A DNA stretch of 32,000 nucleotides from a bacterium (GTDB lineage: Bacteria; Margulisbacteria; Marinamargulisbacteria; SXXA01): assembly GCA_010028705.1 (NCBI GenBank), contig RHAI01000010.1, forward strand, positions 5,506 through 37,505. Direction: 5' to 3'. The notes under the pieces were generated by a model that was given only the letters and a program-made list of their open reading frames with translations, searched no databases and was not told where the DNA came from. The first letter of the stretch is position 1. The number at the start of each line of letters is the position of its first letter. The translations under genes and the position numbers were made by a program. Positions 15,007-32,000 of this stretch are shown here, one piece after another.

Positions 15007-15433
15007 AATATTGGGCATCATCGATTCGATTGAAGCTACGGTTCTCGACGGGAAAAAAGTGCCGTTTTCGGACAAGGTACTAATGGACGAGAAGCGCCTT
15101 CTCAATTTATTGGATAAATTGAGATATGTGATAAAAAACGATCCCGAATCGATTCGGCGGTCGATCGAGACGGGTACAATGACACCATCGACGCCAGCCC
15201 CGACGCCAGTTGTTATTGAGACTCCAGTGGCGATACATCCGGATGTGTTGCGTCAGGCTGATGACGAAAGTCAACGCCTTCGCAGAAATGCCGACGAATA
15301 TGCGGACAATGTACTCGCCCATCTTCAAATGCTTGTAACTCGCGCGCAAAAGAATTTGATCAAGCTGGAGCAAAGTATTGATTCTGGGAGACAAAATCTT
15401 GAAAACCGTCGCGCTGAAAAGGAGCTAGGATGA
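14999..15433 (+). CDS. hypothetical coiled-coil protein with a central Pro/Thr-rich linker
   Basis: 144 aa. Start overlaps the coaD stop by 8 nt and the stop overlaps the rph start (ATGA). The N-terminal pattern (IIDSIEATVLDGKKVPFSDKVLMDEKRLLNLLDKLR) resembles, from memory, a conserved small protein often mislabelled 'ATPase' next to coaD in Firmicutes. Not verified. Confidence 0.6.
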   Translation: MNEILGIIDSIEATVLDGKKVPFSDKVLMDEKRLLNLLDKLRYVIKNDPESIRRSIETGTMTPSTPAPTPVVIETPVAIHPDVLRQADDESQRLRRNADEYADNVLAHLQMLVTRAQKNLIKLEQSIDSGRQNLENRRAEKELG

Positions 15434-17082: not shown

Positions 17083-17457
17083 TTATGTGGTGGGTCCGGA
17101 GGGTTTCCCACGTTTAGATTTGGCCATTTTATCGAGCTGATATACAAAAGCTAAAACTTCAGCAACCAACGTGTAAAGCTCGGCAGGTATCTCAGAATTG
17201 AGGTCAAGTTTAGCTAGCAAGTCCGTCAGCGTTTCGTCTTCAAAAAACGGAATTCGATTTTCTTCCGCAAGTTCAAGTATTTTTTCAGCGACAGTTGCTT
17301 TGCCCGTAGCGACAATTTTGGGCGCTTTGTCTTTTCCTACCTGATATTTGATTGCAATCGCTTTGAGGTCTTTTTTCTCGGGAAGTTGCAATTCGTCAAG
17401 GTGACGTTTTAATTTGCGAGCTTTTTTATTTAAAAGGGATTGCGGTATTTTTTTCAT
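17083..17457 (-). CDS. stand-alone FlhB C-terminal-fragment-like protein (YlqH-type, EscU/YscU/HrcU family)
   Basis: 124 aa. AIAIKYQVGKDKAPKIVATGKATVAEKILELAEENRIPFFEDETLTDLL....IPAELYTLVAEVLAFVYQL matches the part of FlhB downstream of the autocleavage site. No NPTH motif and no TM domain are present. Start overlaps the upstream gene stop by 4 nt. Confidence 0.8.
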   Translation of the reverse strand: MKKIPQSLLNKKARKLKRHLDELQLPEKKDLKAIAIKYQVGKDKAPKIVATGKATVAEKILELAEENRIPFFEDETLTDLLAKLDLNSEIPAELYTLVAEVLAFVYQLDKMAKSKRGKPSGPTT

Positions 17458-18743
17458 ACTTCGGTATTGATCCTTGATAAGTTATCTAAATTAAGTTTAG
17501 GAAGTATCAAATTGCGGATAGAAATTGGCTTGTCGGAGGTTTGTAACCCAGCGAGTTCATAGTTTTGTACGGATAATTGTTCTTTGAATTCACCAATCCA
17601 TTGTGTGAGCAACATCCGGCTGTCCGTTTTGGATGTGTTGACTTGCATCCAAACCTTTTTATCCAATACATCAAGCGTGATGCACATTTCGCCTAGATCT
17701 TGAGTTTCAAATTTTATTATGACACGGGTTTTCTGTGGGTTGTATTCAGTTTTCTTTTTCAGAGGATCTTTTCGAATTAGTAATTCGATCGATGATTTTC
17801 CGTTCATCCAGGGATTAGGGAATTGCCAGTATCCAAATCGATCAGTGATTCCTGTTTGGGCGATTTGTTCGGACATTATAGCTTGGCTTGTTAACGCTTC
17901 TAGAAATCCGCTAATGTCATGTTGTAATTGCTGAGATGCTTCGAGGATCCGTTTCGCGGAGGGCGAATCGCCATGATCCAGACCAATTTTTTGACGCAAA
18001 CCGCCTAAAAACTCAAGCATCGATTTGAAGTCATTGATTAATTCGGTCCGCGACGCGGGATTCCAGTTCGCCTTTTCCTTCGAAGATTTTGAGAACTTTT
18101 TAAGCGACTCATCTAAATCGCCGAGAATAGATGTCAGCCCTGTGAGTAGCCCTGTGGTAAATAATTCGCTGCTCCAATTCAAGTTTAATTTAAAGTTTGC
18201 CATCGCGTTTTGGAGTTGTTGAAATTGTTGGCTAATTTCAAGCTGGTTGTTAAGAAAATGGCCGATTATATCCACGCTTCTGGGTGCTTCGGCCAGGCCT
18301 TTTGATACACTGACGACCGACGATTCTAGCGAGTTATTTGCTTTTCTGCCCTTTAATAATGTTTGTACTGTCTCAAAATTTTGGGCAGATGCCTCTAAGC
18401 CAAATTGTAATATCGATGACATTATTTGGATGTTTTCCGAGGTGGGGGGATGTTTAATTTGAACAAGTTGATCCACAATGTCGGATCGTGAAATCGGGCG
18501 AGATACCGTCTCTCTGGGTTGTGTTGGGGACGTCGGATCGTTTTTAGTTGTCGGTTTTGATGCCGCCACTTTGGTGGTAGTTTCAACCGATCCAGGGGCT
18601 CCAATATTTTTGTTTATACCCTGAGCTTCCTCGATTGAAAACGTCTTTTTAATGCCCGATGTGTCATCCGCTTTGGTGGTCGGTTTGACCGAAGATTCAA
18701 AGTAACCGCCGCTTCTTCGAGAACTTGATACACCTAAATCCAT
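17454..18743 (-). CDS. FliK-like (flagellar hook-length control-like) protein
   Basis: 429 aa. The N-terminus is disordered and Thr/Pro/Ser-rich, the middle is helical, and the C-terminal block (RVIIKFETQDLGEMCITLDVLDKKVWMQVNTSKTDSRMLLTQWIGEFKEQLSVQNYEL) follows the FliK C-terminal (Flg_hook/T3S4) pattern. GAGGTG Shine-Dalgarno. Confidence 0.6.
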   Translation of the reverse strand: MDLGVSSSRRSGGYFESSVKPTTKADDTSGIKKTFSIEEAQGINKNIGAPGSVETTTKVAASKPTTKNDPTSPTQPRETVSRPISRSDIVDQLVQIKHPPTSENIQIMSSILQFGLEASAQNFETVQTLLKGRKANNSLESSVVSVSKGLAEAPRSVDIIGHFLNNQLEISQQFQQLQNAMANFKLNLNWSSELFTTGLLTGLTSILGDLDESLKKFSKSSKEKANWNPASRTELINDFKSMLEFLGGLRQKIGLDHGDSPSAKRILEASQQLQHDISGFLEALTSQAIMSEQIAQTGITDRFGYWQFPNPWMNGKSSIELLIRKDPLKKKTEYNPQKTRVIIKFETQDLGEMCITLDVLDKKVWMQVNTSKTDSRMLLTQWIGEFKEQLSVQNYELAGLQTSDKPISIRNLILPKLNLDNLSRINTEV

Positions 18744-19758: not shown

Positions 19759-21060
19759 ATGGAGAAAATGATGGTTTTGTCTGAACAAATGTTTCAATCT
19801 GCTCGCCGGATATTAGTCGGTGGGGTAAATAGCCCGGTACGAGCATTTAAGAGTGTGGGTGGAACCCCTGTCTTCTTTAAAGAAGGTTACGGGTCTCGGT
19901 TAGTGTCCGTTGATGATCATGAATTTATTGATTACGTACTCTCGTGGGGGCCAATGATTTTGGGTCACGCATTTCCTCCGGTTGTCGAGTCGATTGTATC
20001 TGCGGTTCACCGAGGCCTGTCGTTTGGAGCTCCGACTGAAGCGGAGACAATTTTGGCCGATTTGATTCACGAATTTTTCCCCTCAATGGAGCGAGTGCGT
20101 TTTGTCAATTCCGGAACCGAAGCCTGTATGAGCGCGATTCGTTTAGCTCGGGGTGTTACGGGGCGCCGCCGAATACTAAAATTCGAAGGGTGTTACCATG
20201 GTCACGCCGATGCGTTATTAGTTAAAGCCGGGTCCGGTGGACTGACTCTTGGGTGTCCGGATAGTGCGGGGGTGTTAAGTGAGTGGGCGCAGTGGACATC
20301 GATCGCGCCTTACAACGATTTGGAGTCGGTTCGTAAGTTGTTTGCGAACGTTGGGGATGATATTGCTGCAATTATTGTGGAGCCAGTTGTTGGAAATATG
20401 GGTGTGGTGCCGCCCAACCCAGGATTCTTACAAGGCCTCCGTGACATCGCGAGTGCTCATGGGACTCTGTTAATTTTTGACGAAGTGATGACCGGATTCC
20501 GAGTCGCGCTGAAAGGGGCCCAACATAAGTATGGGGTAGTGCCAGATATTACGTGTTTAGGAAAGGTGGTTGGGGGTGGATTGCCATGTGCTGCATACGG
20601 TGGCCGGGCCGAATTCATGGAATATTTGGCGCCTGTGGGCCCGGTCTATCAGGCTGGAACGTTATCGGGCAATCCCGTCGCAATGGCAGCGGGCATTTCG
20701 ACGCTTACAGCATTAAAGACGAGTAATCACTTTGAACGAGCGGAATCGCATGCATCACATATTGTTGCCGGGATGCGCCAGTGGATAACGGCTCATGGTT
20801 TGCCGTTGACTGTTAGTCAGGTGGGGACGATGTGGACTCTGTTTTTTTCAGATACGACGGTTTTTAATTTAGCCACTGCACAACGGTCGGATACCAGACG
20901 GTTTTCGCTATATTATCGTGCAATGTTAGACCGGGGCGTTTACCTTGCACCCTCACAATTTGAATCTAATTTCACCTCGTCTGCCCACACGCTCACTGAT
21001 GCGGACTTTTTTATTAGTTCATTTGAGAAGAGTTTGGATTTGGAAATATTCGGGAAATAA
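19759..21060 (+). CDS. hemL: glutamate-1-semialdehyde 2,1-aminomutase
   Basis: 433 aa with GGVNSPVRAF, DYVLSWGPMILGH, FDEVMTGFR and the PLP-Lys context CLGKVVGGGLP. ATG 19771, with GGAG 6 nt upstream, is an alternative start. Confidence 0.93.
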   Translation: MEKMMVLSEQMFQSARRILVGGVNSPVRAFKSVGGTPVFFKEGYGSRLVSVDDHEFIDYVLSWGPMILGHAFPPVVESIVSAVHRGLSFGAPTEAETILADLIHEFFPSMERVRFVNSGTEACMSAIRLARGVTGRRRILKFEGCYHGHADALLVKAGSGGLTLGCPDSAGVLSEWAQWTSIAPYNDLESVRKLFANVGDDIAAIIVEPVVGNMGVVPPNPGFLQGLRDIASAHGTLLIFDEVMTGFRVALKGAQHKYGVVPDITCLGKVVGGGLPCAAYGGRAEFMEYLAPVGPVYQAGTLSGNPVAMAAGISTLTALKTSNHFERAESHASHIVAGMRQWITAHGLPLTVSQVGTMWTLFFSDTTVFNLATAQRSDTRRFSLYYRAMLDRGVYLAPSQFESNFTSSAHTLTDADFFISSFEKSLDLEIFGK

Positions 21061-21125: not shown

Positions 21126-21131
21126 TATAAT
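21126..21131 (+). promoter_or_regulatory. candidate -10 box (TATAAT) for the TPR/FliG-like/motAB operon
   Basis: A perfect TATAAT lies 28 nt upstream of ATG 21160. Only a weak -35 (TTTCGA at 17-nt spacing) is present. Confidence 0.25.
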
Positions 21132-21159
21132 GAGGCAATCGCGAAGGGAGTTTGAAGTT

Positions 21160-22191
21160 ATGGGTTCTGAAATTAAGGGTAGTTTCAATACCGTTTTGAT
21201 ACTTGCGTGGTCCGTGGGGTTCCTAATCGTGGGTTCTCCATTATTGCTTGCTCAAACGGCGGTTTCGTCTCCTTTGAAGCAATCGCAAGCTGCCGCTGCA
21301 TCATCGCTGAAGAAAGAGGCTCCCCTGACGGATGATGAAATTTTCCAGTTTCAACAAAAATACAAAGACGCCCTGGCCGCCAAACGATTTGACGAGGCCT
21401 TGATTTTGGTCCGTAAGTTGCCTGATTCAAGCCTGTCTCGGCCTCAGCGCAAAGAAATGACATCATTGCTACTGTTTGATTCAGTCGAACAAAAAGTGGC
21501 GAGTTCATCGTCCATGTTTGCCAAAGAAGACGAGTTGGATGATGCGACAAAAAAGATGGTTCAGAAGTTATATAAAGAGGCGGAATCAGCGTTTATTACG
21601 AACCAAACGGAATTGTCCCGTGATATTTTGATTCATATTTTATTCCTGCATCGTCAGAATCTCCGGGCTAAATTTTTGTTAGAAGAAGGGCTTGATTTGA
21701 AAGCAGGGTCATACAAGATTGAAAATATGGAGGCGAAATACTGGAATAAATCCTCTATTAGCTTTTATGGTGGAAATTACCAGCAGTCTGTTGATTGTCT
21801 CCAAGCATTGTCCTTTTTCGACAAGGATAACCCAACTGTTTATGAACGTATGGGCTCGGCGTATTACATGATGGGCGAAAAAGAGCGTGCGATTAGCGCC
21901 TGGAACACGGTGCTTTTCTTGGATCCAGGAAACGCTGAGATTCAAGAGATAATTAAAAAAACTCAAGAGATGATTGCCGAGGATAAGGAAGAAGCTAAGC
22001 GGGACCGAGCCAAGCCAAAGGCGGCGCAAAATGTTAACCTTGCAGATACTCAATTAATGGGGAAGTTTCCGAAGCAGGATCAAGCGTATGAGTTTGCTAA
22101 CTCATTACGTAAGCAAGGGGTCGATGCAATCGTTACGGAAGAAGATGATGGGAAATGGGCCGTTCGGACCCCCAAAAAAGGATCGAAATAG
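21160..22191 (+). CDS. membrane-anchored or secreted TPR-repeat protein with a short SPOR-like C-terminus
   Basis: Hydrophobic N-terminal segment (FNTVLILAWSVGFLIVGSPLLLAQ). TPR units include YGGNYQQSVDCLQALSFFDKDNPTVYERMGSAYYMMGEKERAISAWNTVLFLDPGN. The C-terminal QLMGKFPKQDQAYEFANSLRKQGVDAIVTEEDDGKWAVRT has a beta-alpha-beta-beta pattern like half a SPOR domain. The ORF track starts at 21130, but ATG 21160 has a GGGAG Shine-Dalgarno 9 nt upstream. Confidence 0.7.
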   Translation: MGSEIKGSFNTVLILAWSVGFLIVGSPLLLAQTAVSSPLKQSQAAAASSLKKEAPLTDDEIFQFQQKYKDALAAKRFDEALILVRKLPDSSLSRPQRKEMTSLLLFDSVEQKVASSSSMFAKEDELDDATKKMVQKLYKEAESAFITNQTELSRDILIHILFLHRQNLRAKFLLEEGLDLKAGSYKIENMEAKYWNKSSISFYGGNYQQSVDCLQALSFFDKDNPTVYERMGSAYYMMGEKERAISAWNTVLFLDPGNAEIQEIIKKTQEMIAEDKEEAKRDRAKPKAAQNVNLADTQLMGKFPKQDQAYEFANSLRKQGVDAIVTEEDDGKWAVRTPKKGSK

Positions 22192-22203: not shown

Positions 22204-23664
22204 ATGCTCAAGTGCTTGTCTCGGTTGTTTGTAGTATTGGTTAGTCTAATTCTTGCAATTCCGATTTTTGCGAGTCCAGACCAAATTGCCATTGAAGAGC
22301 AGTTGGCAACACGCTTACAGAGGTCATTAGATTCTATTTATGGACCGAACAACTTTGTTGTCCGAGTTGATGTTTCGTTGTCGGCCCCGAGTTATCAGGT
22401 TCGTTATACGGCTCAATCGAAAGCCGCTGTTTCTGGCGAGTCAAAGACTTCGGCAAAAGTTAACATTATGCCTGGATATCCGGTGATTAGAAATTTAGGT
22501 CCCGAGACGATGAAACAGCTTCCGTTTGATTCGGTTACTACCTATGCGACTCCGGCGTTGCAATCGATTACTGTGCACCTGCTCATTAACAAGTCTTTCC
22601 CCAAAAGTCAGGCTGGTCGGGCCCAAGCTATTGTCAAAGAACTTCTAAATTGGAAAGATGGTCGCGATAAAATTGAGGTTGCCTATAAGCCGTTTATTGA
22701 TCAAGCGGCACCCGTTCAAAAAATCGAAATCGAAAATCAAGGCGACAAATTGTTTTCGACTCAAAATATTTTCTACATGATTTTCGCCGGTTTGGCACTA
22801 GTTTTTATGATGCTTTATGGGTATTTTTCGGGTCGGACATCGAAGACGCTCAATGCTCTGTCCGTGGCCGGGCCGGCTAGTTCTGGCGGTGGAGGTGGCG
22901 CCGCTCCAAGCGTAACCGTCAGCCCGTCGATTGAGCTTCCCAAGGGTTCCGGAGGTGGTGGCGATATTAAAATTTCGAACGCACCCCCCGTTAAGCAATA
23001 TTTCGATTTTATTAGTGACGATACGTTGGATAAGCTCACCTATCTCTTAAAAAAAGAGAATGTTGGTCCTGATAATCTTAGCCTAATCGTTGGTTTTTTA
23101 CGTCCCGATTTGGCGGCTAAGCTATTGACCCAATTTGATGTGAAGATACAGGCCGCAATTGCCTTGAATATTATCGATCAAAAAATGATTAATCGGGCGG
23201 TACTCGATAAATTAGAATCTCAAATAAAAGGAGCAATCGAGTGTCTGAGCGGTGGCGAATTATCATTCAAATCGATTTATTCAACAGTCTCTAGCTCAAA
23301 TAAAAAACAGCTGTTAGCCCTTCTCGAAAAATCCTCACCCGAAGGATTTAAGAAAGTTCGGAATAATATCGTGCTGTTTGATGATTTAGCAGTTCTTGAT
23401 GACGAAGAAATTAAATTATTGTTATCTGAGGTCCGTGCCGAATTGTTTGCTGTAGCTTTGGCCTCATCGGATCCTAATCTGTACGATCGGTTTGATCGCA
23501 ATATGACCCGAAACGCCAAGGAAGTTATATCCCAGTTTTTAGAGATTCGAGGCGCCAATATTGGTGTTGATGAGATTGAAAAAGCACGCACCAATATTTT
23601 AGATATTGCACTGCGGTTGGAGCGAGACGGACGAGTTCAGATCTCCGCTAAATTGCGGAAGTAA
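22204..23664 (+). CDS. membrane protein: periplasmic FliF/YscJ-like ring-building module + TM helix + Gly-rich linker + FliG-like middle and C-terminal domains
   Basis: 486 aa. Signal/anchor is MLKCLSRLFVVLVSLILAIPIFA. RBM-like pattern: IEEQLATRLQRSLDSIYG..FVVRVDVSLS ... ITVHLLINKS....AGRAQAIVKELLN...KIEVAYKPF. TM helix is IFYMIFAGLALVFMMLYGYF followed by R/K. Linker is SSGGGGGAAP...GSGGGG. ARM-like segment is LSLIVGFLRPDLAAKLLTQFDVKIQAAIALNII. The C-terminus (VLFDDLAVLDDEEIKLLLSEVRAELFAVALASSDPNLYDRFDRNMTRNAKEVISQFLEIRGANIGVDEIEKARTNILDIALRLERDGRVQI) is collinear with the FliG C-terminal domain. Confidence 0.65.
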   Translation: MLKCLSRLFVVLVSLILAIPIFASPDQIAIEEQLATRLQRSLDSIYGPNNFVVRVDVSLSAPSYQVRYTAQSKAAVSGESKTSAKVNIMPGYPVIRNLGPETMKQLPFDSVTTYATPALQSITVHLLINKSFPKSQAGRAQAIVKELLNWKDGRDKIEVAYKPFIDQAAPVQKIEIENQGDKLFSTQNIFYMIFAGLALVFMMLYGYFSGRTSKTLNALSVAGPASSGGGGGAAPSVTVSPSIELPKGSGGGGDIKISNAPPVKQYFDFISDDTLDKLTYLLKKENVGPDNLSLIVGFLRPDLAAKLLTQFDVKIQAAIALNIIDQKMINRAVLDKLESQIKGAIECLSGGELSFKSIYSTVSSSNKKQLLALLEKSSPEGFKKVRNNIVLFDDLAVLDDEEIKLLLSEVRAELFAVALASSDPNLYDRFDRNMTRNAKEVISQFLEIRGANIGVDEIEKARTNILDIALRLERDGRVQISAKLRK

Positions 23665-23685: not shown

Positions 23686-24459
23686 ATGATAGGACTGTAT
23701 GTTGGGTTTTTAGTTGTATTATGGATTATGTTTGAGTTAATCGGAGTCGATGCGAACGCCAAGCTGTTTTTGAGTAAAGAAGCCTCGGTTGTCGTTGTGG
23801 GGGGGTTAGTTAGTGCGACGTTAATTAATTTCCCAATTACCCAGGTCAAAAAAATTGGAAGCTGGATGAAGGTCGTATTTAAGGCTCCCAAAAAAGATTT
23901 TTTGGAGGAAATTGCCTTATTGCTTCGCTTATCGCAAAAGATGAGTCGAGAGGGTAGACAATCGTTGGAGCCTGAAATTGAAAAGATAAATGACGGGTTT
24001 TTGAAGGCGGCGATGACTCTAGTCATGAATCGCGTGGAACCCCGTGAAATTAAAAGCTTGCTTAAAGAAATGATTGAACAGTCAGGAAGCCGTCACGAGC
24101 AGGGTATTCATTATTTTGAACAAATGGCCAAGTATTCTCCTGGATTAGCATTGATTGGTACGCTTTCCGGGTTGGTAAAATTATTGGCCAACGTATCTGA
24201 TCCGAAGACAATTGGTCCGAACATGGCTTTGGCACTGGTGTGTACATTTTATGGTGTAACATCGGCTAATTTGATATTTTTACCGATGTCTGGCCGATTA
24301 AAGGTCTCAAGTCACGTTGAAGCGATTCATAAGGAGCAACTTGTTGAGGCGGTTGTCGCAATGGCATCGGATGAACTTCCGATTGTTGTTCAAGAGAAAC
24401 TTTACATGTTGCTAACCTCCAAAGATCGCACCTTGGTAAGTAAAAAGCTAGGAGTTTAA
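23686..24459 (+). CDS. motA: flagellar-type stator protein MotA/PomA
   Basis: 257 aa. It has four TM segments with a large loop between TM2 and TM3. Conserved Pro-containing helices are YSPGLALIGTLSGL and ALALVCTFYGVTSANLIFLPMSGRLK. Strong GGAAAGGAG Shine-Dalgarno. Confidence 0.85.
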   Translation: MIGLYVGFLVVLWIMFELIGVDANAKLFLSKEASVVVVGGLVSATLINFPITQVKKIGSWMKVVFKAPKKDFLEEIALLLRLSQKMSREGRQSLEPEIEKINDGFLKAAMTLVMNRVEPREIKSLLKEMIEQSGSRHEQGIHYFEQMAKYSPGLALIGTLSGLVKLLANVSDPKTIGPNMALALVCTFYGVTSANLIFLPMSGRLKVSSHVEAIHKEQLVEAVVAMASDELPIVVQEKLYMLLTSKDRTLVSKKLGV

Positions 24460-24462
24460 TTC

Positions 24463-25209
24463 ATGGGACAGAAATTCCAAACGGAAGTAGAAAATTTTTA
24501 TGTTTCGTTTTCGGACTTGCTGTCTCTTCTATTAATTTTTTTCGTATATCTGTTTTCGATGTCGTCTATTGATTCCGAAAAGTATACCCAGGCGTCAGAG
24601 TCCATTAGCCAGGAGTTTTCAAGCGAGCAAAAAAATAGTGGTAATATGCCCTATAGTATACCAGTTCCCCCGGGGGGGCAGGCGGATAAACGAATGCGGA
24701 GTGCAGAAGGTATACTGGTGTCTAAGTTAAAAGCCCAGATTGAGAGTGAAAAACTTGACGGCCAGGCCAAATTAGAGATTTCCCCCAAGTCTGTTAAGGT
24801 GGTCTTATCCTCCCCGGTGTTGTTTGCGTCCGGGAGTTCCGATCTTAGTGCTGAAGGTGCTGTATTGCTTGGAAAATTTGGTCCCATTATTAAGCAAGTC
24901 TTGAATCCTGTTGTTATTGAAGGATTCACTGATAACGTTCCTATTCACAATAGTCGCTTCGACAGCAACTGGGAGTTGTCGTTTCAACGGACCTTGTCTG
25001 TAATGAGGTATTTTATCGACAAGTTTTCCTTCAGTCCCGAACAATTGTCCGGGACAGGTTTTGGTCAGTATCGCCCTTTAGTACCCAATACTTCGGACGA
25101 AAACCGAGCCCGAAATCGTAGGATTGAAATATCTATAATTAGAGACTATAACCTTCCGGAGATAGCCCCTGATAAGGTCCTTGAAAAGGATCCTCCCAAA
25201 TCTAAATAA
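24463..25209 (+). CDS. motB: flagellar-type stator protein MotB (OmpA-like peptidoglycan-binding C-terminus)
   Basis: 248 aa. The N-terminal TM carries the conserved channel Asp (YVSFSDLLSLLLIFFV). The OmpA-like domain is VVIEGFTDNVPI....SNWELSFQRTLSVMRYF....GFGQYRPLVPNTSDENRARNRRIEISI. Starts 3 nt after motA. Confidence 0.85.
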   Translation: MGQKFQTEVENFYVSFSDLLSLLLIFFVYLFSMSSIDSEKYTQASESISQEFSSEQKNSGNMPYSIPVPPGGQADKRMRSAEGILVSKLKAQIESEKLDGQAKLEISPKSVKVVLSSPVLFASGSSDLSAEGAVLLGKFGPIIKQVLNPVVIEGFTDNVPIHNSRFDSNWELSFQRTLSVMRYFIDKFSFSPEQLSGTGFGQYRPLVPNTSDENRARNRRIEISIIRDYNLPEIAPDKVLEKDPPKSK

Positions 25210-26618: not shown

Positions 26619-27596
26619 TTAACTACTTAGTATTCTCAATATATCTCTAGCGGCGTAAGTAATAATTAGGTCGGCGCCGGCACGTTTAAGCGAAATTACG
26701 GATTCCATTATTATGTCGCGATCGTTGGCTAAATTATGTTTAATGGCGAGCTGGAGCATCGAGTATTCTCCTGATACCTGGTAGGCAACAATGGGTGTTT
26801 TTATCTGATCCCGGAGTTCACGTATAATATCAAGGTACATCATACCAGGCTTAACCATGACTAAGTCGGCACCTTCGGAAATATCCTGCACGGTTTCTAG
26901 TATCGCTTCTCGCCGTTGTGTGGGCGCTATTTGGTGGTGCTTTCGGTCGCCTATAAATTGGGTACCCGATCCCGCGGCATCGCGAAACGGACCATATAGT
27001 GAACTTGCATATTTTGCCGAGTAGGCGAGTATTCCAGTGTGATTATGACGGGCGTCGTCCAATGATTGGCGTATCGCCTGGACGGCCCCGTCCATCATGC
27101 CAGATGGTGCAATAAAGTCGGCGCCAGCATTCGCATATGAGAATGCTATTTTTTTCAAGCAATCGAGGGTGGCGTCGTTATCGAGACCTCGGGTGGTTAA
27201 TATTCCGCAATGTCCGTGGTTGGTATACTCGCACAAACAACAATCTGCAAAAATCACGATATTTGGCACCCGTTGTTTAATCCCTTTAATTACTGTTTGG
27301 ACGCCACCCTGCGGATTCCATGCTGAGGTGCCATGCGCGTCTTTTTGCCGAGGAATTCCAAAAATTAATACGCCTCTTAGGCCTGAGCGGTATGCCGTTT
27401 CCACTTCATTAATCGCGATATCGGGCGGGTATTGGAATACTCCAGGCATTGATGGTACTGGGACAGGGGCGGCGATGTCTTCCCGAATAAATAATGGCCA
27501 AATTAGGTCGCTTGGATCGATTCGTGTTTCAGCGAGTAATTCGCGAACGCCGAGGGTTCTGCGGACTGTATGAAATCGTTTAATTTTTTGCTGCAT
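26619..27596 (-). CDS. hemB: porphobilinogen synthase (delta-aminolevulinate dehydratase), Zn-type
   Basis: 325 aa with the Cys-rich metal site DCCLCEYTNHGHCG and the Schiff-base Lys contexts VMVKPGMMYLDII and DFIAPSGMMDG. Confidence 0.93.
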   Translation of the reverse strand: MQQKIKRFHTVRRTLGVRELLAETRIDPSDLIWPLFIREDIAAPVPVPSMPGVFQYPPDIAINEVETAYRSGLRGVLIFGIPRQKDAHGTSAWNPQGGVQTVIKGIKQRVPNIVIFADCCLCEYTNHGHCGILTTRGLDNDATLDCLKKIAFSYANAGADFIAPSGMMDGAVQAIRQSLDDARHNHTGILAYSAKYASSLYGPFRDAAGSGTQFIGDRKHHQIAPTQRREAILETVQDISEGADLVMVKPGMMYLDIIRELRDQIKTPIVAYQVSGEYSMLQLAIKHNLANDRDIIMESVISLKRAGADLIITYAARDILRILSS

Positions 27597-28314
27597 TTTG
27601 TTTTCTATGGTCGATTATTTTTTTAATGATGTCTCGTTGAGTCGGTGTGTCTGATATCAATTTATTTGAGCATTTCAAATAGCGTAACGTTTGTTGGCCA
27701 ATCGCTAGATGAACTTGTTGAGGGAGGTCCGTTGGAAATTGATTGAAAAAACTTCGAGCAACGGAGCCGCTAAAATGAATGACATAATCATACTCAAGCG
27801 GTGAATTAATCGCAATCGTTAGGGGTAGAGTCGTATAAATTGCGATTGGATATACTGAGCGACATGATCCTAGCCAGTCGGTAGTCGATAGCTCTGAGCG
27901 AGGATGAATCCATAGTTCGGATGTCAGTTCAGTTGAGAAGTCCTCCATGATGGCGGCCGAAGTGGGGGTCGATGGAAATCGTATGTTGTGCGCTGGGTAT
28001 CCCGCGTTCAGAAATGGAGCGGCTGTTTTTGGTCCGATGCATATGATTTTTTTGTCGCATATTTTTTGGTAGATTTCTCGAGTTGCCAATACTATTTCAG
28101 TCGCATAGTGACTCGTAAATATGATTCCGTCAGCACGAGTTAATAGTGCATTGGAAATTGACCGTTCCCATTTCGGTAAGGCGATCGTGGTGATCGCGGG
28201 CACAGCGTCAAAGTGTCCGCCTTCGGATTCAATTCCAATCTGTAACTCCCGTACTGTCGCTATGTCGCGAAGAGCGAGAACTCTGGCGCCTAGTAGAGCG
28301 GGTTGAGTTTCCAT
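27580..28314 (-). CDS. hemD: uroporphyrinogen-III synthase
   Basis: 244 aa with a weak but typical HEM4 pattern (IIFTSHYATE, ICIGPKTAAPFLNAGY, VIHFSGSVARSF). It sits between hemC and hemB and overlaps both. Confidence 0.72.
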   Translation of the reverse strand: METQPALLGARVLALRDIATVRELQIGIESEGGHFDAVPAITTIALPKWERSISNALLTRADGIIFTSHYATEIVLATREIYQKICDKKIICIGPKTAAPFLNAGYPAHNIRFPSTPTSAAIMEDFSTELTSELWIHPRSELSTTDWLGSCRSVYPIAIYTTLPLTIAINSPLEYDYVIHFSGSVARSFFNQFPTDLPQQVHLAIGQQTLRYLKCSNKLISDTPTQRDIIKKIIDHRKQNAAKN

Positions 28315-29183
28315 TCAGTCGCTTTTTTTACCAGTTCGCTCGCTGCTAAATCGAGGGATGATCCCACATCTTCGATCTCCAATCTTGAAAAATCAGGACT
28401 GGACCGAAATAGTCGAGTACGGGTGGCGTCCCCCTTAATTTCGGTTAGCATTCCTAACGGTAGTTGACAATCAAATCCTACCGTTCGTAAGAAGCTCAGC
28501 TGCAATGATGAAATGGTATATTGATTGGCGTTACTTATAGATTTCGCCAGCTGCCTAAGCTCAGGATCATTTATCCGTGTTTCAAGGCAAATGACACCCT
28601 GGCCTGGCGCTGGGATGAATTGATGTGGCGGTAGAACCGCGTACGTCGTGTCGAGATGCAATCGCATCATACTCACCTCCGATAGCATAATGGCATCGAG
28701 ATGGTGCAATGCATTTAAACGTGTGCCAATATTCCCACGAATATCCCGGGTAATAATATCCGGCCGAATCATTTTCAAAAGGGCTTTCCTGCGCATCGAT
28801 CCGGTCCCCACGGTGGCATTTCTAGGGAGTGTATCGATGGTGTACTGGAAATTAGATACGAGGCAATCACATATCGATTCTGCCGCTAAAAAACCGGTTA
28901 ATTCAAGCGTATCGGCCGTGTTGGCTGTGACATCTTTCAGCGAATGAACCGCAATGTCGATTTTCTTGTCGATGAGAGCGACTTCCAGTTCTCGAATAAA
29001 AACGCCTTTCCCCCCAATTTCAAAGAGCGGCGATTTTTGGTTAATGTCACCGGTAGTCTCGATACCAATAATTTCAGTCGGTTTTTTGGGAAACGTTGCC
29101 CTTATTTTTTCTTCAACGATCTTCGCTTGTGCCATGGCTAAAGGGGATTTGCGTGATCCTATACGAATGGGTTGGAATGTCAT
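28290..29183 (-). CDS. hemC: hydroxymethylbilane synthase (porphobilinogen deaminase)
   Basis: IRIGSRKSPLAMAQA, VHSLKDV, GTGSMRR and PAPGQGVICLETR. The ORF track extends to GTG 29213. ATG 29183 forms a TAATG overlap with the hemA stop and gives an N-terminus (MTFQPIRIGSRKS) matching family norms. Confidence 0.9.
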   Translation of the reverse strand: MTFQPIRIGSRKSPLAMAQAKIVEEKIRATFPKKPTEIIGIETTGDINQKSPLFEIGGKGVFIRELEVALIDKKIDIAVHSLKDVTANTADTLELTGFLAAESICDCLVSNFQYTIDTLPRNATVGTGSMRRKALLKMIRPDIITRDIRGNIGTRLNALHHLDAIMLSEVSMMRLHLDTTYAVLPPHQFIPAPGQGVICLETRINDPELRQLAKSISNANQYTISSLQLSFLRTVGFDCQLPLGMLTEIKGDATRTRLFRSSPDFSRLEIEDVGSSLDLAASELVKKATEWKLNPLY

Positions 29184-30196
29184 TAGTGGTACACCGACCG
29201 ACGGTCGAGCCACAGATGAAATCGGTTCTGTTCCTCAGTTAATATTCCCGTTACTTTAGCTGATTCTTTTTGACGCTTAAGAACATTCTTGTCGGCAATC
29301 GCCTGGAGCCCACCGACTCCAATAATTCGACACGTGGAGGACTCAATTAATGGGTCCACATTACGGGGCACTGCCAGGTCAATAATTAATTCGGTGACGG
29401 CATGCTTTGTAATGTTCCCTTTTGAAAGGATGAAGTCGGATGATCCGGTGGCAACGATTATTATATGGAAGTTGGATGCGACGCTCCGAATCGTATCAAA
29501 TGGAATGACCTGACAATTTGACTCGGTTCCGACACGCATAGCGGTCATGTGAGTTCGGTTAGAGACGTAAAGATTAGGATGTCCAATGGCGGCGAGTTTT
29601 TTAACGGCTCGGTTCCCAATTTTTCCGGTTCCAATGACTATAATTGACTTATCAAAGTAATCGAAAATAGTCTCCCGAATAGCGTCAACGGCGATGGAGC
29701 TCACTGAGTAGGACCCTCTTGAGATTTCGGTTTCGTGCCGTACTCGTTTTCCCGTCGCGATGGCAATTTGAAATACTTTGTTGAGTATTGGCCCCGTTGA
29801 ATTTAACGACGAAAATTGGTGGTAGGCATCTTTGACTTGAGACAATATTTCATCTTCCCCAAACACCATCGATTCTACACCTGCGGCGACATTTAATAAG
29901 TGGCGGAGAACCGCATCGCCTTCAAGGGTATACCCAATAGAACGGAGTGTTGAGTGCGGGATTTCGCCCCATCGACTGATAAAATTGACGATCCACTGGG
30001 TCGCTTCCGAAGTGTTTTGGCTGACGTAATACATTTCAAAACGGTTGCAGGTCGCAAGGATAACAAGCTCATCAATAGGGCTGTCGTGAACTACGTCGTG
30101 TGTAACCGACGGCCAAGATTCTTTGTTGAGATAAATGAGTTCCATCTCTTGAATCGATGTGCGTTTGTAATCTGTTCCAAAAAATCCTAAATTCAT
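29183..30196 (-). CDS. hemA: glutamyl-tRNA reductase (short form)
   Basis: 337 aa with the catalytic Cys context LATCNRFEMY and the NADPH site VIGTGKIGNRAVKKL. The protein ends soon after the nucleotide-binding domain. Confidence 0.88.
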   Translation of the reverse strand: MNLGFFGTDYKRTSIQEMELIYLNKESWPSVTHDVVHDSPIDELVILATCNRFEMYYVSQNTSEATQWIVNFISRWGEIPHSTLRSIGYTLEGDAVLRHLLNVAAGVESMVFGEDEILSQVKDAYHQFSSLNSTGPILNKVFQIAIATGKRVRHETEISRGSYSVSSIAVDAIRETIFDYFDKSIIVIGTGKIGNRAVKKLAAIGHPNLYVSNRTHMTAMRVGTESNCQVIPFDTIRSVASNFHIIIVATGSSDFILSKGNITKHAVTELIIDLAVPRNVDPLIESSTCRIIGVGGLQAIADKNVLKRQKESAKVTGILTEEQNRFHLWLDRRSVYH

Positions 30197-30268
30197 TTTT
30201 ATTAACTCTGTTCAAAAAATTGTATCGGTACTGTGCCCCGTTTTGCAACGCGATAAATCTGATTTTGG

Positions 30269-31147
30269 TTGAAATATTGGGCGGTTTTCGTTAGTATCCT
30301 CCCCGTGACGCGACCAAAATTTTCAATCCAAACGATTAGTTCGACCCCCATTCCATCCGTTGTCACGGTGTTTCTTTTTTTTGTGATGTTTGTAATTTTG
30401 CTCTCTGGGGAATCATTCGCTGTGTTCAATGAAAATTACCAAGAGTTTCAAGATCCATCGATCCGAACCGTGGTTCAGAGCATGCGTGCTACTCAGATCC
30501 ATTATAACAACGCGTTATTATACACCATGAATGTCGACACGCCCGGTTATATTGAGATCGGTGGATACAACTCCCTCGACCGTGACGGAGTCATCCAAAT
30601 GATCCCGTTTTATCGATGGCGGGCGGGGCCTGTAGTCGAAACGTTGCGCCCACTCGATTTTTATATCGATGCGGTAGGCAAAGGTTTTTTTCAGGTGTCG
30701 TTGCCGACCGGATTGGGCTTTACTCGCGATGGTCGATTTACGTTGGATTCTCGGCGAAAATTAGTTATGTTAGCGGGAAATTTCCCGGTGTTGGGTGAAC
30801 GAGGAGAAATTTTTTTGCCGGAGGGGGACGAGATTGCCGTATCTAAAACCGGCTTGATTTTTGTGGATGGGGCACCCGTTGACAGAATGAAGGTCGTTGT
30901 TTTCACCGAAAAAGGGATCAATCAATTGGACACAGTGAACGGTAGCATTTTTATTTTAAGTGGCGAGGGAGAATTGAACTCGGCCGCCGATTATTCTGTT
31001 CGGCAGGGCTTTATCGAACAGAATAACATTATAAAGGCCTTAATTGGGGATATTTCCTCGGCAAAAAACACCTATGAAGCTTCGGCGAAAGCTGGGAAAG
31101 CGATTATTAAAGAGATGAATTCAGCCATCCAATTGGGTGCGCCTTAG
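30269..31147 (+). CDS. flgF: flagellar basal-body rod protein, FlgF/FlgG family (start uncertain)
   Basis: N-terminal rod motif SMRATQIHYNNALLYTMNVDTPGY, central GFTRDGRFTLDSRRKLV, and a C-terminal rod heptad region VRQGFIEQNNIIKALIGDISSAKNTYEASAKAGKAI. The TTG at 30269 lacks a Shine-Dalgarno. In-frame ATG 30386 or GTG 30422 are more plausible starts. Confidence 0.7.
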   Translation: MKYWAVFVSILPVTRPKFSIQTISSTPIPSVVTVFLFFVMFVILLSGESFAVFNENYQEFQDPSIRTVVQSMRATQIHYNNALLYTMNVDTPGYIEIGGYNSLDRDGVIQMIPFYRWRAGPVVETLRPLDFYIDAVGKGFFQVSLPTGLGFTRDGRFTLDSRRKLVMLAGNFPVLGERGEIFLPEGDEIAVSKTGLIFVDGAPVDRMKVVVFTEKGINQLDTVNGSIFILSGEGELNSAADYSVRQGFIEQNNIIKALIGDISSAKNTYEASAKAGKAIIKEMNSAIQLGAP

Positions 31148-31196
31148 GTTGACATTGAACATACGGATATCGTCTGAAATTACAGGAGGTTAATTA

Positions 31197-32000
31197 ATGA
31201 TTTCACAATTATTTATGGCAAAAAGTGCTTTGATCGCATACCAGCGGAAAATGCAGGTAGTCGTTAATAATATTTCAAACGCTCAAACGGTTGGCTACAA
31301 ACGTCGGTCAGTTGAAATGGAAAGTTTGTTCCCCTTAGTGTTTGAATCGGTAATTAATGATGGCGACGAGAGTACGGCAGGGACATCGCGAAGCCGGAAG
31401 CGTTACCTCGAGTATGGACAAGGTGTGCGGGTGGCGGACATTCGGAAGGATATGAGTCCCGGAAGTATTGAAGTGACCAATCAAGATCTTGATATGGCGA
31501 TTGATGGGGCGGGCTTGTTCCAGCTTCGGTTGAGTGATGGAACTGTAGCTTACGGCCGTGCCGGCAATTTTCATGCTGATCCGGATGGGAATGTAGTGGA
31601 TCCAAATGGTAACCCTCTTGAGCCGAATCTGAAATTGCCCCGGGAGTATTCGGATGTCATTATCAATGAAGAAGGGAAGGTGTTTGTTCAGAGTAATGGC
31701 GATCCAAATCCGAGAGAAATTGGTCAGGTGACCCTTGCAATTTTCCCAAATCCGGCGGGCTTGAAAGATATCGGTCAAAATCTATATGTTCAAACCGCTG
31801 CTTCGGGAGACCCTAGTTTTCAAATTCCTGGACGCGGATTGGCGGGGTCGTTACGGCAACGTGCACTCGAATTTTCGAATGTGAATGTGATTGAAGAGAT
31901 GATGAATATGGTGTTAACCCAGCGCGCGTTTGATTTGACGATTAAGTCAATTAACTCTGGCGATCAAATGTTGAAGAGCGGTAGTGATTTGGGTAAATAG
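31197..32000 (+). CDS. flgG: flagellar basal-body distal rod protein FlgG
   Basis: 267 aa with NNISNAQTVGYKR, LDMAIDGAGLFQL, YGRAGNFHADPDGNVVDPNGNPL and the C-terminal LEFSNVNVIEEMMNMVLTQRAFDLTIKSI. AGGAGG Shine-Dalgarno. The stop codon ends exactly at 32000. Confidence 0.9.
   Translation: MISQLFMAKSALIAYQRKMQVVVNNISNAQTVGYKRRSVEMESLFPLVFESVINDGDESTAGTSRSRKRYLEYGQGVRVADIRKDMSPGSIEVTNQDLDMAIDGAGLFQLRLSDGTVAYGRAGNFHADPDGNVVDPNGNPLEPNLKLPREYSDVIINEEGKVFVQSNGDPNPREIGQVTLAIFPNPAGLKDIGQNLYVQTAASGDPSFQIPGRGLAGSLRQRALEFSNVNVIEEMMNMVLTQRAFDLTIKSINSGDQMLKSGSDLGK

What the first reader, a model, noticed from the sequence alone, without database searches (positions are those of the whole stretch)
22204..23664. 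Single polypeptide combining a FliF-like ring-building module with FliG-like rotor domains, but lacking canonical FliG contact motifs
Topology read from the sequence is: N-terminal signal/anchor, a periplasmic domain of about 165 aa, one TM helix followed by Arg/Lys, a Gly-rich linker (GGGGG...GGGG), then about 230 aa that follow FliG middle (ARM-like) and C-terminal domains almost residue for residue. The periplasmic part follows the alpha-beta-beta-alpha-beta ring-building-motif pattern of FliF/SctJ, with ARVHL-type and ASVxL-type strands. About 60 residues are inserted between the first two strands, reminiscent of the insertions that form beta-collars in FliF RBM3 and SpoIIIAG. In canonical motors FliF and FliG are separate proteins joined by the FliF C-terminus/FliG N-domain contact, and here a covalent TM link appears to replace that contact. 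No HPQ string occurs where the FliM-binding EHPQ(R) motif should be (ENVGPDN instead). When I align the torque helix from memory to the E. coli/T. maritima pattern (...RAA..L..DL...GPVRL..V..AQ), this protein reads ...RNAKEVISQFLEIRGANIGVDEIEKAR. The acidic pair and the Arg of the charge ridge are therefore replaced by Q-F and I. This points to a rotor-like ring that does not bind a FliM/FliN switch and meets its stator through a non-canonical interface. I do not know of a described protein with this architecture.
Basis: partly seen in the sequence, partly recalled or inferred. Interest (0 to 1): 0.85.

Follow-up and report, generated by a model that had tools for sequence, protein, structure and literature searches.

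The report
Membrane-anchored FliF–FliG fusion rotor protein
This gene encodes a natural fusion of the ring-forming part of the flagellar MS-ring protein (FliF) with the torque-receiving part of the rotor protein (FliG), in a bacterium whose ordinary FliG has lost that part, so its flagellar motor may be built in a way not described before.

Summary
ORF 22204-23664 (486 aa) has five parts in order: a signal-like N-terminus, a FliF RBM3-type ring domain with a roughly 60-aa collar-like insert, one TM helix, a Gly-rich linker, and FliG middle plus C-terminal domains. It has no FliG N domain and no EHPQ. None of the five charged FliG residues that face the stator is kept (K264, R281, D288, D289, R297).

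It lies in a tight operon: TPR protein, fusion, MotA, MotB. The TPR-fusion pair is conserved in 22 of 22 Margulisbacteria loci examined.

The same genome continues about 7 kb past the window end into flgB-flgC-fliE-fliF-fliG. There FliG is only about 228 aa (N plus M domains, with an E(K/R)PQ motif and no C domain). FliF there lacks the beta-collar. These losses complement what the fusion retains.

The fusion residue at the D288 position covaries with the neighbouring MotA residue at the R90 position.

My best reading (about 0.5) is that FliG is split in this lineage and the fusion supplies the torque domain to the flagellar motor.

The main rival (about 0.3) is an independent MotAB-driven ring. 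Distant relatives in Elusimicrobiota and Saganbacteria sit in non-flagellar-looking cassettes with giant proteins.

I found no published description. I could not exclude a second, full-length FliG elsewhere in the genome.

The parts
21130..22191 (+). TPR protein with an N-terminal signal-like segment and a weak SPOR-like C-terminal end. It is the invariant upstream partner of the fusion gene.
   Evidence: Pfam TPR_2 4.9e-7, TPR_11 5.5e-7, and SPOR only 0.43. It lies immediately upstream of the fusion in 22 of 22 Margulisbacteria loci. A TPR gene also lies upstream in most loci of the distant subfamily. In Riflemargulisbacteria, SLH and TPR are fused to TM plus FliG_MC in one chain, P0166/P0228.
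22204..23664 (+). The fusion protein (486 aa): signal/anchor, RBM3-like ring domain, TM helix, Gly-rich linker, FliG_M, FliG_C.
22204..22272 (+). N-terminal hydrophobic segment (aa 1-23). It is probably a cleavable signal peptide (IFA|SPD).
   Evidence: Hydropathy. Ala23 is nearly invariant in alignment A5. Cleavage is inferred, not tested.
22273..22698 (+). Periplasmic FliF RBM3-type ring-building domain (aa 24-165), ending in the FliF-like 'GRD...PF' motif (R154, D155, F164).
   Evidence: AF2 secondary structure. Foldseek to FliF RBM3/collar rings at E of about 1e-5. PF08345 in 13 of 33 members. D155 and P90 are invariant even in the 60-sequence broad alignment.
22381..22557 (+). Insert of about 59 aa between RBM3 strands 1 and 2 (aa 60-118). 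It sits at the position of the FliF beta-collar and carries the invariant P90-G91 (LPGYP) and LPFDSVT motifs.
   Evidence: pLDDT is below 50 for aa 71-107 in the monomer model. The position matches the E. coli FliF collar. Homology of the insert to the collar is inferred.
22759..22836 (+). Single transmembrane helix (about aa 186-211), followed by SGRTSK.
   Evidence: AF2 helix 186-219. Hydropathy and sequence.
22837..22989 (+). Gly-rich, low-confidence cytoplasmic linker (aa 212-262).
   Evidence: pLDDT is below 50 for aa 216-257. Sequence.
22990..23244 (+). FliG middle (ARM_M-like) domain without EHPQ or R160. E285 is kept.
   Evidence: Pfam FliG_M over aa 280-344. The profile match to T. 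maritima FliG begins at 'FDF', aligned to 'FSF'. Motif alignment.
23251..23256 (+). Gly350-Gly351, at the position of the FliG Gly-Gly hinge.
   Evidence: Invariant in A1 and in the broad alignment A4.
23323..23643 (+). FliG C-terminal domain (aa 374-480). It has IVLFDD at the MFXF position (F392 and D394 invariant).
   Evidence: Pfam FliG_C 1.3e-18. Foldseek 1qc7 TMt 0.85-0.93, rmsd 1.0-1.2.
23503..23559 (+). Torque-helix equivalent (aa 434-452, MTRNAKEVISQFLEIRGAN). N437 aligns to R281, Q444 to D288 and F445 to D289.
   Evidence: Q444 is invariant in the family.
23686..24459 (+). MotA/PomA-type stator A subunit (257 aa).
   Evidence: Pfam MotA_ExbB 8.4e-24. NCBIfam MotP/MotA models score 159-176 bits, below their cut-offs. 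Ser sits at the E. coli R90 position and Glu at the E98 position.
24463..25209 (+). MotB-type stator B subunit with plug and OmpA-like peptidoglycan-binding domain.
   Evidence: Pfam MotB_plug 3.7e-13 and OmpA 3.3e-16.
17083..18743 (-). FliK-like (429 aa) and stand-alone FlhB C-terminal-domain (124 aa) genes. They show that the genome carries flagellar genes.
   Evidence: Pfam Flg_hook 5.7e-7 (29.7 bits against a cut-off of 29.8) and Bac_export_2 2.6e-19. In other genomes this pair lies directly after motB.
30269..32000 (+). FlgF-like and FlgG rod genes. This is the start of the cluster that continues beyond the window to flgA-H-I, fliA, flgB-C, fliE, fliF and the truncated fliG.
   Evidence: L010 overlaps window 28727-32000 at 99.85% identity and carries the continuation. 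Pfam labels.

Best explanation
In this Margulisbacteria lineage the inner rotor of the flagellar motor is divided between two gene sets.

Set 1 lies about 7 kb downstream of the window.
- FliF keeps RBM1-2, a collar-less RBM3 and the C-terminal FliG-binding helix.
- A short FliG keeps only the N domain, which docks on FliF, and the M domain with an E(K/R)PQ...R motif, which would dock on FliM.

Set 2 is the protein studied here.
- It keeps an RBM3 ring domain with a collar-like insert, a TM helix, an M-like domain without the FliM motif, and the only FliG C-terminal (torque) domain seen in this genome.

Proposed mechanism.
- The protein is exported and anchored as a single-pass membrane protein.
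- Its periplasmic RBM3 domains oligomerise into a ring at or around the MS-ring.
- The roughly 50-residue Gly-rich linker lets the FliG_MC part reach the C-ring radius.
- There the FliG_C torque helix is pushed by the cytoplasmic domain of the MotA pentamer encoded next to it.
- The contact surface is remodelled. The acidic and basic pairs are replaced, for example by Gln444/Phe445 facing Ser in MotA.
- The periplasmic TPR protein encoded just upstream probably acts as a scaffold for the ring or for the stators.

Shown here: the domain composition, the motif losses, operon and neighbourhood conservation, the truncated FliG and collar-less FliF in the same genome, and the MotA/fusion covariation.

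Inferred: ring formation, physical coupling to FliF or the short FliG, the role in torque, and the absence of any other full-length FliG.
For: 1. Domains.

2. Same genome. L010 overlaps window 28727-32000 at 99.85% and continues FlgF-FlgG-FlgA-FlgH-FlgI-x-FliA-FlgB-FlgC-FliE-FliF(516 aa)-FliG(228 aa). P0256 (EB093_03605) shares its locus-tag prefix with the window protein P0001 (EB093_02625).

3. The short FliG.
- Pfam FliG_N 2e-4 plus FliG_M 9e-4, in order.
- The family profile hits only FliG chains in the PDB. It matches Salmonella FliG residues 4-158 at E=9e-5.
- All 31 homologues are 155-253 aa long. None is near the 330 aa of a full-length FliG.
- It follows fliF in four genomes.
- E(K/R)PQ and the FliF C-terminal helix (EPEVLAQIMEDWL) are conserved.

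4. FliF lacks the collar.
- About 12 residues separate RBM3 strands 1 and 2, against about 115 in E. coli.
- TIGR00206 matches only profile positions 46-226 of 555.
- There is no PF08345 hit.

5. Neighbourhood. In L006/L007 one co-directional cluster runs TPR, fusion, MotA, MotB, FliK, FlhB_C, FlgF ... FliF, short FliG. The arrangement is similar in L014 and L015.

6. Covariation at the canonical contact (R90/D288-D289; PMC12505986). Q pairs with S, T or Q in 7 loci. E pairs with H or R in 2 loci.

7. The stator is of flagellar type, with plug and OmpA domains.
Against: - I could not scan a whole genome, so a second full-length FliG and a second motAB elsewhere are not excluded.
- About half of the Margulisbacteria loci have no motAB next to the fusion.
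- Distant family members in Elusimicrobiota and Saganbacteria sit in cassettes with giant proteins, TPR, FlbD-MotA-MotB and no flagellar structural genes within 10 kb. The module can therefore probably work without a flagellum.
- A Riflemargulisbacteria relative has an SLH cell-wall-binding domain fused to the same chain. That fits poorly with a freely rotating part.
- The covariation rests on 9 related loci and few independent changes.
- Evidence for the short FliG is individually weak. Pfam scores fall below the gathering thresholds and Foldseek E-values are 0.02-0.1.
- No oligomer or complex prediction could be run.
Confidence: 0.5

Rival explanations
1. The TPR protein, the fusion and MotAB form a self-contained, non-flagellar rotary or energising machine. 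The fusion oligomerises into its own small rotor ring. MotAB turns it, and the output passes through the periplasmic ring and the TPR partner to envelope or surface components. The flagellum of this organism would use other proteins not seen here, and the nearness of flagellar genes would be only ancestral linkage.
For: - The TPR-fusion pair is a conserved module in every context.
- In 40 metagenome loci and in L031, L033 and L034, the distant subfamily lies in a conserved cassette. The order is giant ORF (14,454 and 16,931 aa in two cases), TPR (with or without a FadL/UPF0164-like barrel), the fusion, an 800-1600 aa protein, FlbD, MotA and MotB. My searches found no flagellar structural genes there.
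- L033 is from Elusimicrobiota.
- Those relatives keep near-canonical FliG motifs.
- The fusion contains everything needed for a ring plus a torque domain. It lacks FliG_N, so it has no canonical way to dock on FliF.
Against: - It leaves the conserved C-domain-less FliG and the collar-less FliF of the same genomes without a torque domain or collar.
- In several Margulisbacteria genomes the operon is contiguous and co-directional with flagellar genes.
- The Margulisbacteria loci have no giant gene or 800-aa gene next to the module.
- Only 10 kb on each side was examined in the distant loci, and my flagellar queries were few.
Confidence: 0.3
2. The fusion is an accessory or regulatory ring of the flagellar motor rather than the torque receiver. 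It could be a membrane-anchored FliG_C 'decoy' or docking ring. With the peptidoglycan-associated TPR protein, it would recruit, park or brake MotAB units around the motor. This would be analogous in role to stator scaffolds such as MotX/MotY or PflA/PflB, or to brakes that bind the MotA-FliG interface.
For: - The upstream partner is a secreted TPR protein with a weak SPOR-like end (alignment). TPR and peptidoglycan-binding scaffolds of stators are known in Vibrio and Campylobacter (my own knowledge).
- An SLH domain is fused to a relative.
- The canonical charge residues are lost on both sides of the interface.
Against: - It does not explain where the motor's own FliG_C comes from.
- The Gly-Gly hinge, F392/D394 and the whole C-domain fold are strictly conserved, as expected for a working torque domain.
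- The SPOR hit is not significant (E=0.43).
Confidence: 0.1
3. The protein is simply this organism's FliG or FliF, mis-split or mis-assembled. That is, the fusion would be an artefact of assembly or gene calling.
For: The source is a metagenome-assembled genome. FliF and FliG genes are normally adjacent, so a chimeric join could in principle produce such a reading frame.
Against: - The same full-length architecture recurs in 131 of 176 related sequences from many independent assemblies. Conservation is continuous across the junction.
- The genome has a separate fliF that passes the TIGR00206 cut-off.
- The gene lies in a conserved operon far from fliF.
Confidence: 0.02

Closest known systems
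FliG, the flagellar rotor/switch protein (Pfam FliG_N PF14842, FliG_M PF14841, FliG_C PF01706; TIGR00207)
   Same: - Residues 263-486 are collinear with FliG_M and FliG_C. The profile E-value to T. maritima FliG_MC is 2.2e-29, with about 24% identity.
- The Gly-Gly hinge is kept.
- The second Phe of MFXF is kept.
- The C-terminal helical bundle superposes on 1qc7 at about 1 Angstrom.
   Different: - There is no N domain.
- The protein is membrane-anchored and has a periplasmic domain.
- EHPQ and R160 are lost.
- K264, R281, D288, D289 and R297 are all replaced.
- The TIGR00207 score is 70.8 against a cut-off of 226.7.
FliF, the MS-ring protein (PF01514 RBM1-2; PF08345 RBM3/collar; TIGR00206)
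   Same: - The periplasmic domain has the RBM3 alpha-beta-beta-alpha-beta fold with an insert at the collar position.
- It carries the 'PG' and 'R(G)D...F' motifs.
- It is followed by a TM helix, as RBM3 is followed by TM2 in FliF.
   Different: - There is no TM1-RBM1-RBM2.
- The insert is about 60 aa instead of about 115.
- There is no C-terminal FliG-binding helix.
- The genome has its own, separate FliF.
Engineered or mutant FliF-FliG fusion proteins of Salmonella and Vibrio (PMC6079021, PMC11481574, PMC10941966; PDB 8z4d/8z4g)
   Same: FliF and FliG are joined covalently in one chain. Such fusions assemble rings.
   Different: - Those are laboratory constructs or mutants of full-length proteins in a normal motor.
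- This one is natural and lacks RBM1-2, the FliF tail and FliG_N.
- It coexists with a separate FliF and a truncated FliG.
Second FliG paralogues of spirochetes (FliG1/FliG2; my own knowledge, and mentioned in PMC7225975)
   Same: There is more than one FliG-related protein in a flagellated bacterium.
   Different: Those paralogues are soluble, full-length FliG proteins. None has a periplasmic ring domain or a TM helix.
Ring-building-motif proteins SctJ and SpoIIIAG
   Same: They share the RBM fold. SpoIIIAG also has a beta insert that forms a collar-like barrel (Foldseek E=0.013).
   Different: - They have no cytoplasmic FliG part.
- They are not associated with MotAB.
- The match is much weaker than to FliF RBM3.
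Non-flagellar 5:2 motor systems (GldLM gliding/T9SS, ExbBD-TonB, TolQR-TolA, Zorya ZorAB; my own knowledge, overview in PMC12505986)
   Same: A MotAB-type ion-driven unit is coupled to a dedicated partner that transmits work into the envelope. The Elusimicrobiota cassettes, with a giant protein and a FadL-like barrel, recall the gliding and adhesin arrangement.
   Different: Here the stator is of the flagellar type (plug plus OmpA) and the partner is a FliG_C torque domain on a FliF-type ring. That combination is unknown in those systems.

Membership tests
FliG (TIGR00207 equivalog) | Whole-protein score above the curated cut-off | tested here: not met
   70.8 bits against a cut-off of 226.7.
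FliG | N-terminal domain that binds the FliF C-terminus | tested here: not met
   There is no FliG_N hit in the window protein. The N-terminal 210 aa are signal, RBM3 and TM. Weak FliG_N hits in 8 of 33 members are not located here. In the relatives where coordinates were printed such hits fall over the M region.
FliG | Middle domain with the EHPQR FliM-binding motif | tested here: not met
   The domain is present (PF14841, 26.9 bits against 25). The motif reads ENVGPDN, and R160 is N.
FliG | Gly-Gly hinge and MFXF motif | tested here: inconclusive
   G350-G351 are invariant. The MFXF position reads I-V-L-F, and only the last Phe (F392) is conserved.
FliG | C-terminal domain fold | tested here: met
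   PF01706 at 67.7 bits. 1qc7 gives TMt 0.85-0.93 and rmsd 1.0-1.2.
FliG | Conserved charged residues facing MotA (K264, R281, D288, D289, R297) | tested here: not met
   They read A, N, Q, F and G/I. Q444 is invariant in the family.
FliF (TIGR00206 / PF01514 + PF08345) | RBM1-RBM2 region (PF01514) | tested here: not met
   No hit.
FliF | RBM3 with beta-collar (PF08345) | tested here: inconclusive
   The window protein itself has no Pfam hit. 13 of 33 family members do, with a best E-value of 7.9e-7. The distant member P0139 matches the full model at 2.7e-11. Foldseek to FliF RBM3 rings gives E of about 1e-5. The insert is half the usual length.
FliF | C-terminal cytoplasmic helix that binds FliG_N | tested here: not met
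   After the TM comes a Gly-rich linker and then FliG_M. The genome's true FliF does have the helix.
Flagellar stator MotA/MotB (the neighbouring genes) | MotA_ExbB channel domain, MotB plug, and OmpA-like peptidoglycan-binding domain | tested here: met
   The equivalog cut-offs of the NCBIfam MotA/MotP/PomA models are not reached.
Flagellar stator MotA | Conserved R90 and E98 facing FliG | tested here: not met
   The window MotA has S at the R90 position and E at the E98 position. Relatives have S, T, Q or H at the first and E, V or L at the second.
Ring formation (any RBM family) | Assembly into a high-order ring | not testable with these tools
   Only single-chain prediction was available. 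The collar-like insert has low confidence in the monomer model.

The most novel reading that the evidence does not exclude
The fusion family is the rotor of a previously unrecognised class of MotAB-driven envelope machines, built from a FliF RBM3 ring and a FliG torque domain in one polypeptide.

In Elusimicrobiota and Saganbacteria it would work without a flagellum. Its partners there would be a TPR or FadL-like outer-membrane protein and a giant surface protein, which suggests a new surface-motility or surface-remodelling device.

In Margulisbacteria the same module would have been merged with the flagellum and taken over torque reception. That would have allowed the canonical FliG to lose its C domain and FliF its collar. 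[quoted passage not shown]
Probability: 0.3. Interest if true: 0.92.

Novelty: new variant of a known kind. Interest (0 to 1): 0.8.

Why it matters
The FliF/FliG core is regarded as the invariant heart of the bacterial flagellar motor. FliG always carries the N, M and C domains in one soluble chain, and it docks non-covalently on FliF.

A lineage that moves the torque domain onto a separate membrane-anchored ring protein would be an exception to that rule. Here it also leaves a C-domain-less FliG at the FliF/FliM interface and remodels both sides of the stator contact. Such a lineage would give a natural experiment on several open questions:
- how torque and switching are transmitted through FliG;
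- how much of the charge ridge is really needed;
- how the MS-ring collar contributes to the motor.

Relatives in apparently non-flagellar cassettes with giant proteins matter for a second reason. They would extend the list of machines driven by flagellar-type stators, and they bear on how the flagellar rotor evolved.

Tried and rejected
- A sequence profile of the N-terminal domain against the PDB gave only spurious weak hits to GLIC channels. Fold comparison and Pfam on relatives were needed instead.
- Alignments A4 and A1 were too diverse for the locus finder. Narrower alignments worked.
- The AlphaFold-database fold library was not available.
- Seven literature searches found no description of a natural FliF-FliG fusion, a truncated or split FliG, or Margulisbacteria motor composition. 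The main Margulisbacteria genome paper does not mention flagella.
- The promoter and terminator scan of the operon region gave no more hits than shuffled sequence. By eye I saw no convincing sigma-28 promoter, so I make no regulatory claim.
- I considered that the short FliG might be a gene-calling fragment and rejected it. All 31 homologues are 155-253 aa long, each gene ends within its contig, and all share a conserved C-terminal aromatic motif.
- I considered an assembly chimera for the fusion and rejected it, because it recurs in independent assemblies.
- I could not determine whether fliM, fliN, a full-length fliG or other motAB genes exist elsewhere in the genome. The tools give only 10 kb around a named protein.
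Full report
**1. The observation**

The window contains an ORF at 22204-23664 (+) of 486 aa. It sits in a tight co-directional group. A 353-aa TPR protein ends 12 bp upstream. A MotA homologue starts 21 bp downstream, and a MotB homologue follows 3 bp after that.

The protein has two hydrophobic segments, at about aa 1-30 and about aa 183-211. A Gly-rich stretch follows the second one.

The FliG part is well supported:
- Pfam finds FliG_C (1.3e-18, aa 374-480) and FliG_M (5.8e-6, above the gathering score).
- A profile of 33 family members matches T. maritima FliG_MC in a single collinear stretch at E=2.2e-29.

The AlphaFold2 model (mean pLDDT 75.8) shows, in order:
- a helix-strand unit;
- a low-confidence insert;
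- a strand-helix-strand unit in the periplasmic part;
- a long TM helix;
- a disordered linker;
- the helical FliG_MC part.

Foldseek against the PDB returns FliG structures at E of about 1e-10. It then returns about 17 FliF RBM3/collar ring structures at E of about 1e-5, and SpoIIIAG at 0.013.

Pfam's FliF RBM3 model (PF08345) matches 13 of 33 family members, and it matches a distant member end to end at 2.7e-11.

The ring module is specifically RBM3. RBM1-2 are absent.

**2. Motifs**

Aligned with E. coli FliG, the protein compares as follows:

| E. coli FliG feature | This protein |
|---|---|
| EHPQ | (E)NVGPDN |
| R160 | N |
| K264 | A |
| R281 | N437 |
| D288 | Q444 |
| D289 | F445 |
| R297 | G or I |

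Q444, the Gly-Gly hinge (G350, G351), F392 and D394 are invariant in the family. The protein fails the FliG equivalog model, at 70.8 bits against 226.7.

**3. Organism and family**

The identical protein is EB093_02625 of an unnamed MAG. Relatives are named Candidatus Margulisbacteria or Marinamargulisbacteria.

A scan of one genome per species found 19 species with the gene, all in that group.

An exhaustive profile search found 212 representative proteins at E<=1e-30. Most match over the full length. Of 176 related sequences, 131 have both the N-domain and FliG_MC.

Named distant members come from Saganbacteria and Elusimicrobiota.

**4. Neighbourhood**

The TPR gene lies immediately upstream in 22 of 22 Margulisbacteria loci. 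hemL is usually upstream of that. motA-motB follow directly in about half of the loci.

The window itself carries four flagellar genes:
- a FliK-like gene and a stand-alone FlhB C-domain gene;
- FlgF-like and FlgG at its 3' end.

In the contig of homologue P0017, one co-directional cluster runs as follows:
TPR, fusion, MotA, MotB, FliK, FlhB_C, FlgF, FlgG, FlgA, FlgH, FlgI, x, FliA, FlgB, FlgC, FliE, FliF, then a 215-aa protein.

**5. A truncated FliG and a collar-less FliF in the same genome**

The 215-aa protein after fliF has FliG_N followed by FliG_M. The Pfam E-values are 2e-4 and 9e-4, both below threshold. It carries an E(K/R)PQ motif, usually with the downstream Arg, and it has no room for a C domain.

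Further support for its identity:
- Its family profile hits only FliG chains in the PDB. It matches Salmonella FliG residues 4-158 at E=9e-5.
- The top Foldseek hits of its model are all FliG, but they are weak, at E=0.02-0.1.

All 31 homologues found are 155-253 aa long. One of them, P0256, is EB093_03605, from the same MAG as the window protein.

The contig carrying P0256 overlaps window 28727-32000 at 99.85% identity. It continues through flgA, flgH, flgI, fliA, flgB, flgC and fliE to FliF (516 aa) and then this short FliG (228 aa). The same arrangement occurs in three further genomes.

The FliF of these genomes has these properties:
- It passes the TIGR00206 cut-off, but it matches only profile positions 46-226 of 555.
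- It has no PF08345 hit.
- In alignment with E. coli FliF it has about 12 residues where the roughly 115-residue beta-collar lies.
- It keeps the C-terminal FliG-binding helix.

The features of a canonical FliF/FliG pair are thus divided in a complementary way:

| Feature | FliF plus short FliG | Fusion |
|---|---|---|
| RBM1-2 | present | absent |
| FliF tail | present | absent |
| FliG_N | present | absent |
| FliM-binding motif | present | absent |
| Collar-like insert | absent | present |
| FliG_C | absent | present |

**6. Contact with the stator**

MotA next to the fusion is of the flagellar type, and its partner MotB carries the plug and the OmpA domain. It does not keep R90, and E98 is kept only in some genomes.

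Across nine fusion/MotA gene pairs the two sides covary:
- The fusion residue at the D288 position is Q where MotA has S, T or Q at the R90 position (seven pairs).
- It is E where MotA has H or R (two pairs).

R90/D288-D289 is an established contact pair (PMC12505986). This supports a direct interaction in the canonical geometry with altered chemistry. The sample is small and the sequences are related.

**7. Distant relatives point to a second context**

The following contexts lack recognisable flagellar structural genes within 10 kb:
- three contigs holding distant members, one of them from Elusimicrobiota and one from Saganbacteria;
- 40 metagenome loci.

They carry a conserved cassette in this order:
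- a giant ORF (14,454 and 16,931 aa in two cases), or a small ORF resembling its C-terminal Ig-like domain;
- a TPR protein, sometimes with a FadL/UPF0164-like barrel;
- the fusion;
- an unknown protein of 800-1600 aa;
- often FlbD;
- MotA and MotB.

These relatives keep near-canonical FliG motifs: E-x-P-E, IFxFEDI, K264 and E-E at positions 288/289.

A Riflemargulisbacteria relative fuses SLH and TPR domains to TM plus FliG_MC in one chain.

**8. Interpretation**

The most economical reading for the window genome is a split rotor. The short FliG links FliF to the switch. The fusion supplies the torque domain, and perhaps the collar, and it is driven by the MotAB encoded beside it.

I give this about 0.5. 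The discount reflects three gaps:
- I could not search whole genomes for a second FliG or a second stator.
- I could not model complexes.
- The wider family shows that the module can probably act on its own.

The alternatives are:
- an independent non-flagellar machine, at about 0.3;
- an accessory docking or braking ring, at about 0.1;
- an assembly artefact, which is effectively excluded by recurrence in many assemblies.

**9. Novelty**

Seven full-text literature searches found only engineered FliF-FliG fusions (PMC6079021, PMC11481574, PMC10941966). They found no natural membrane-anchored FliG, no split FliG, and no account of Margulisbacteria motors.

The parts are known families, so I class this as a new variant of a known kind. 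The cassette in non-flagellar contexts could turn out to be a new kind of machine.

Noticed in passing
L010:8448-9998 (same genome, about 5.2-6.7 kb past the window end); also L007:11137-12741, L008:11153-12727, L009:11124-12746: The FliF of these genomes lacks the beta-collar. About 12 residues separate RBM3 strands 1 and 2, against about 115 in E. coli. Only RBM1-2 match the FliF models.
   Followed up: partly
L010:10001-10687; L007:12738-13385; L008:12729-13391; L009:12746-13393: The FliG after fliF is truncated (191-253 aa: N domain, acidic low-complexity linker, M domain with E(K/R)PQ). It ends in a conserved aromatic C-terminal motif (VFFF, LFGF or LFSF) that looks like a docking peptide.
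   Followed up: partly
L010:7274-7723 and L007:10001-10447 (FlgC); L007:9572-9991 (FlgB-like): The rod proteins FlgC and the FlgB-like protein carry a conserved N-terminal hydrophobic, signal-peptide-like extension of about 25 residues. The FlgC model matches only from residue 26. This is odd for proteins normally exported by the flagellar type III system.
   Followed up: no
L010:7733-8419; L007:10455-11096: FliE is 213-228 aa, about twice the usual length. The FliE domain occupies only the last 60-85 residues.
   Followed up: no
L031:1-8090, L033:1-7823, L035, L036, L039, L043 and others: Giant ORFs (14,454 and 16,931 aa where the full length is on record) lie two genes upstream of the distant fusion relatives. 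They end in an Ig-like (FlgD_ig-type) domain. In many loci a small ORF resembling only that end domain takes the same position.
   Followed up: partly
P0166 / P0228 (Candidatus Margulisbacteria GWD2_39_127): This 890-911 aa relative has SLH and TPR domains in place of the RBM3 domain, ahead of TM plus FliG_MC. It is a gene fusion of the TPR partner with the FliG part.
   Followed up: no
window 17083-17457 (-): A stand-alone 124-aa protein consists only of the FlhB/SctU C-terminal domain. It overlaps the end of the FliK-like gene by 4 bp. The pair is conserved across the relatives.
   Followed up: no
window 19759-21060 and 26619-30196: Haem-biosynthesis genes flank the operon on both sides: hemL upstream, and hemB, hemD, hemC and hemA downstream on the other strand. 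The hemL-TPR-fusion order is conserved across Margulisbacteria, with no obvious functional reason.
   Followed up: no
L015:9640-10590: In this one genome the motAB position between the fusion and fliK holds about 950 bp with only short ORFs. One of them looks like a transposase remnant. This suggests a local loss or replacement of motAB.
   Followed up: no
window 10926-11873 (+) and 14999-15433 (+): Two conserved ORFs (315 and 144 aa) have no Pfam match. The 144-aa one is also present, unannotated, in the relatives' contigs.
   Followed up: no
L031:18684-19481: A 265-aa PilZ-domain protein lies near the fusion-MotAB cassette of a distant relative. It could be a c-di-GMP brake of the YcgR type.
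   Followed up: no
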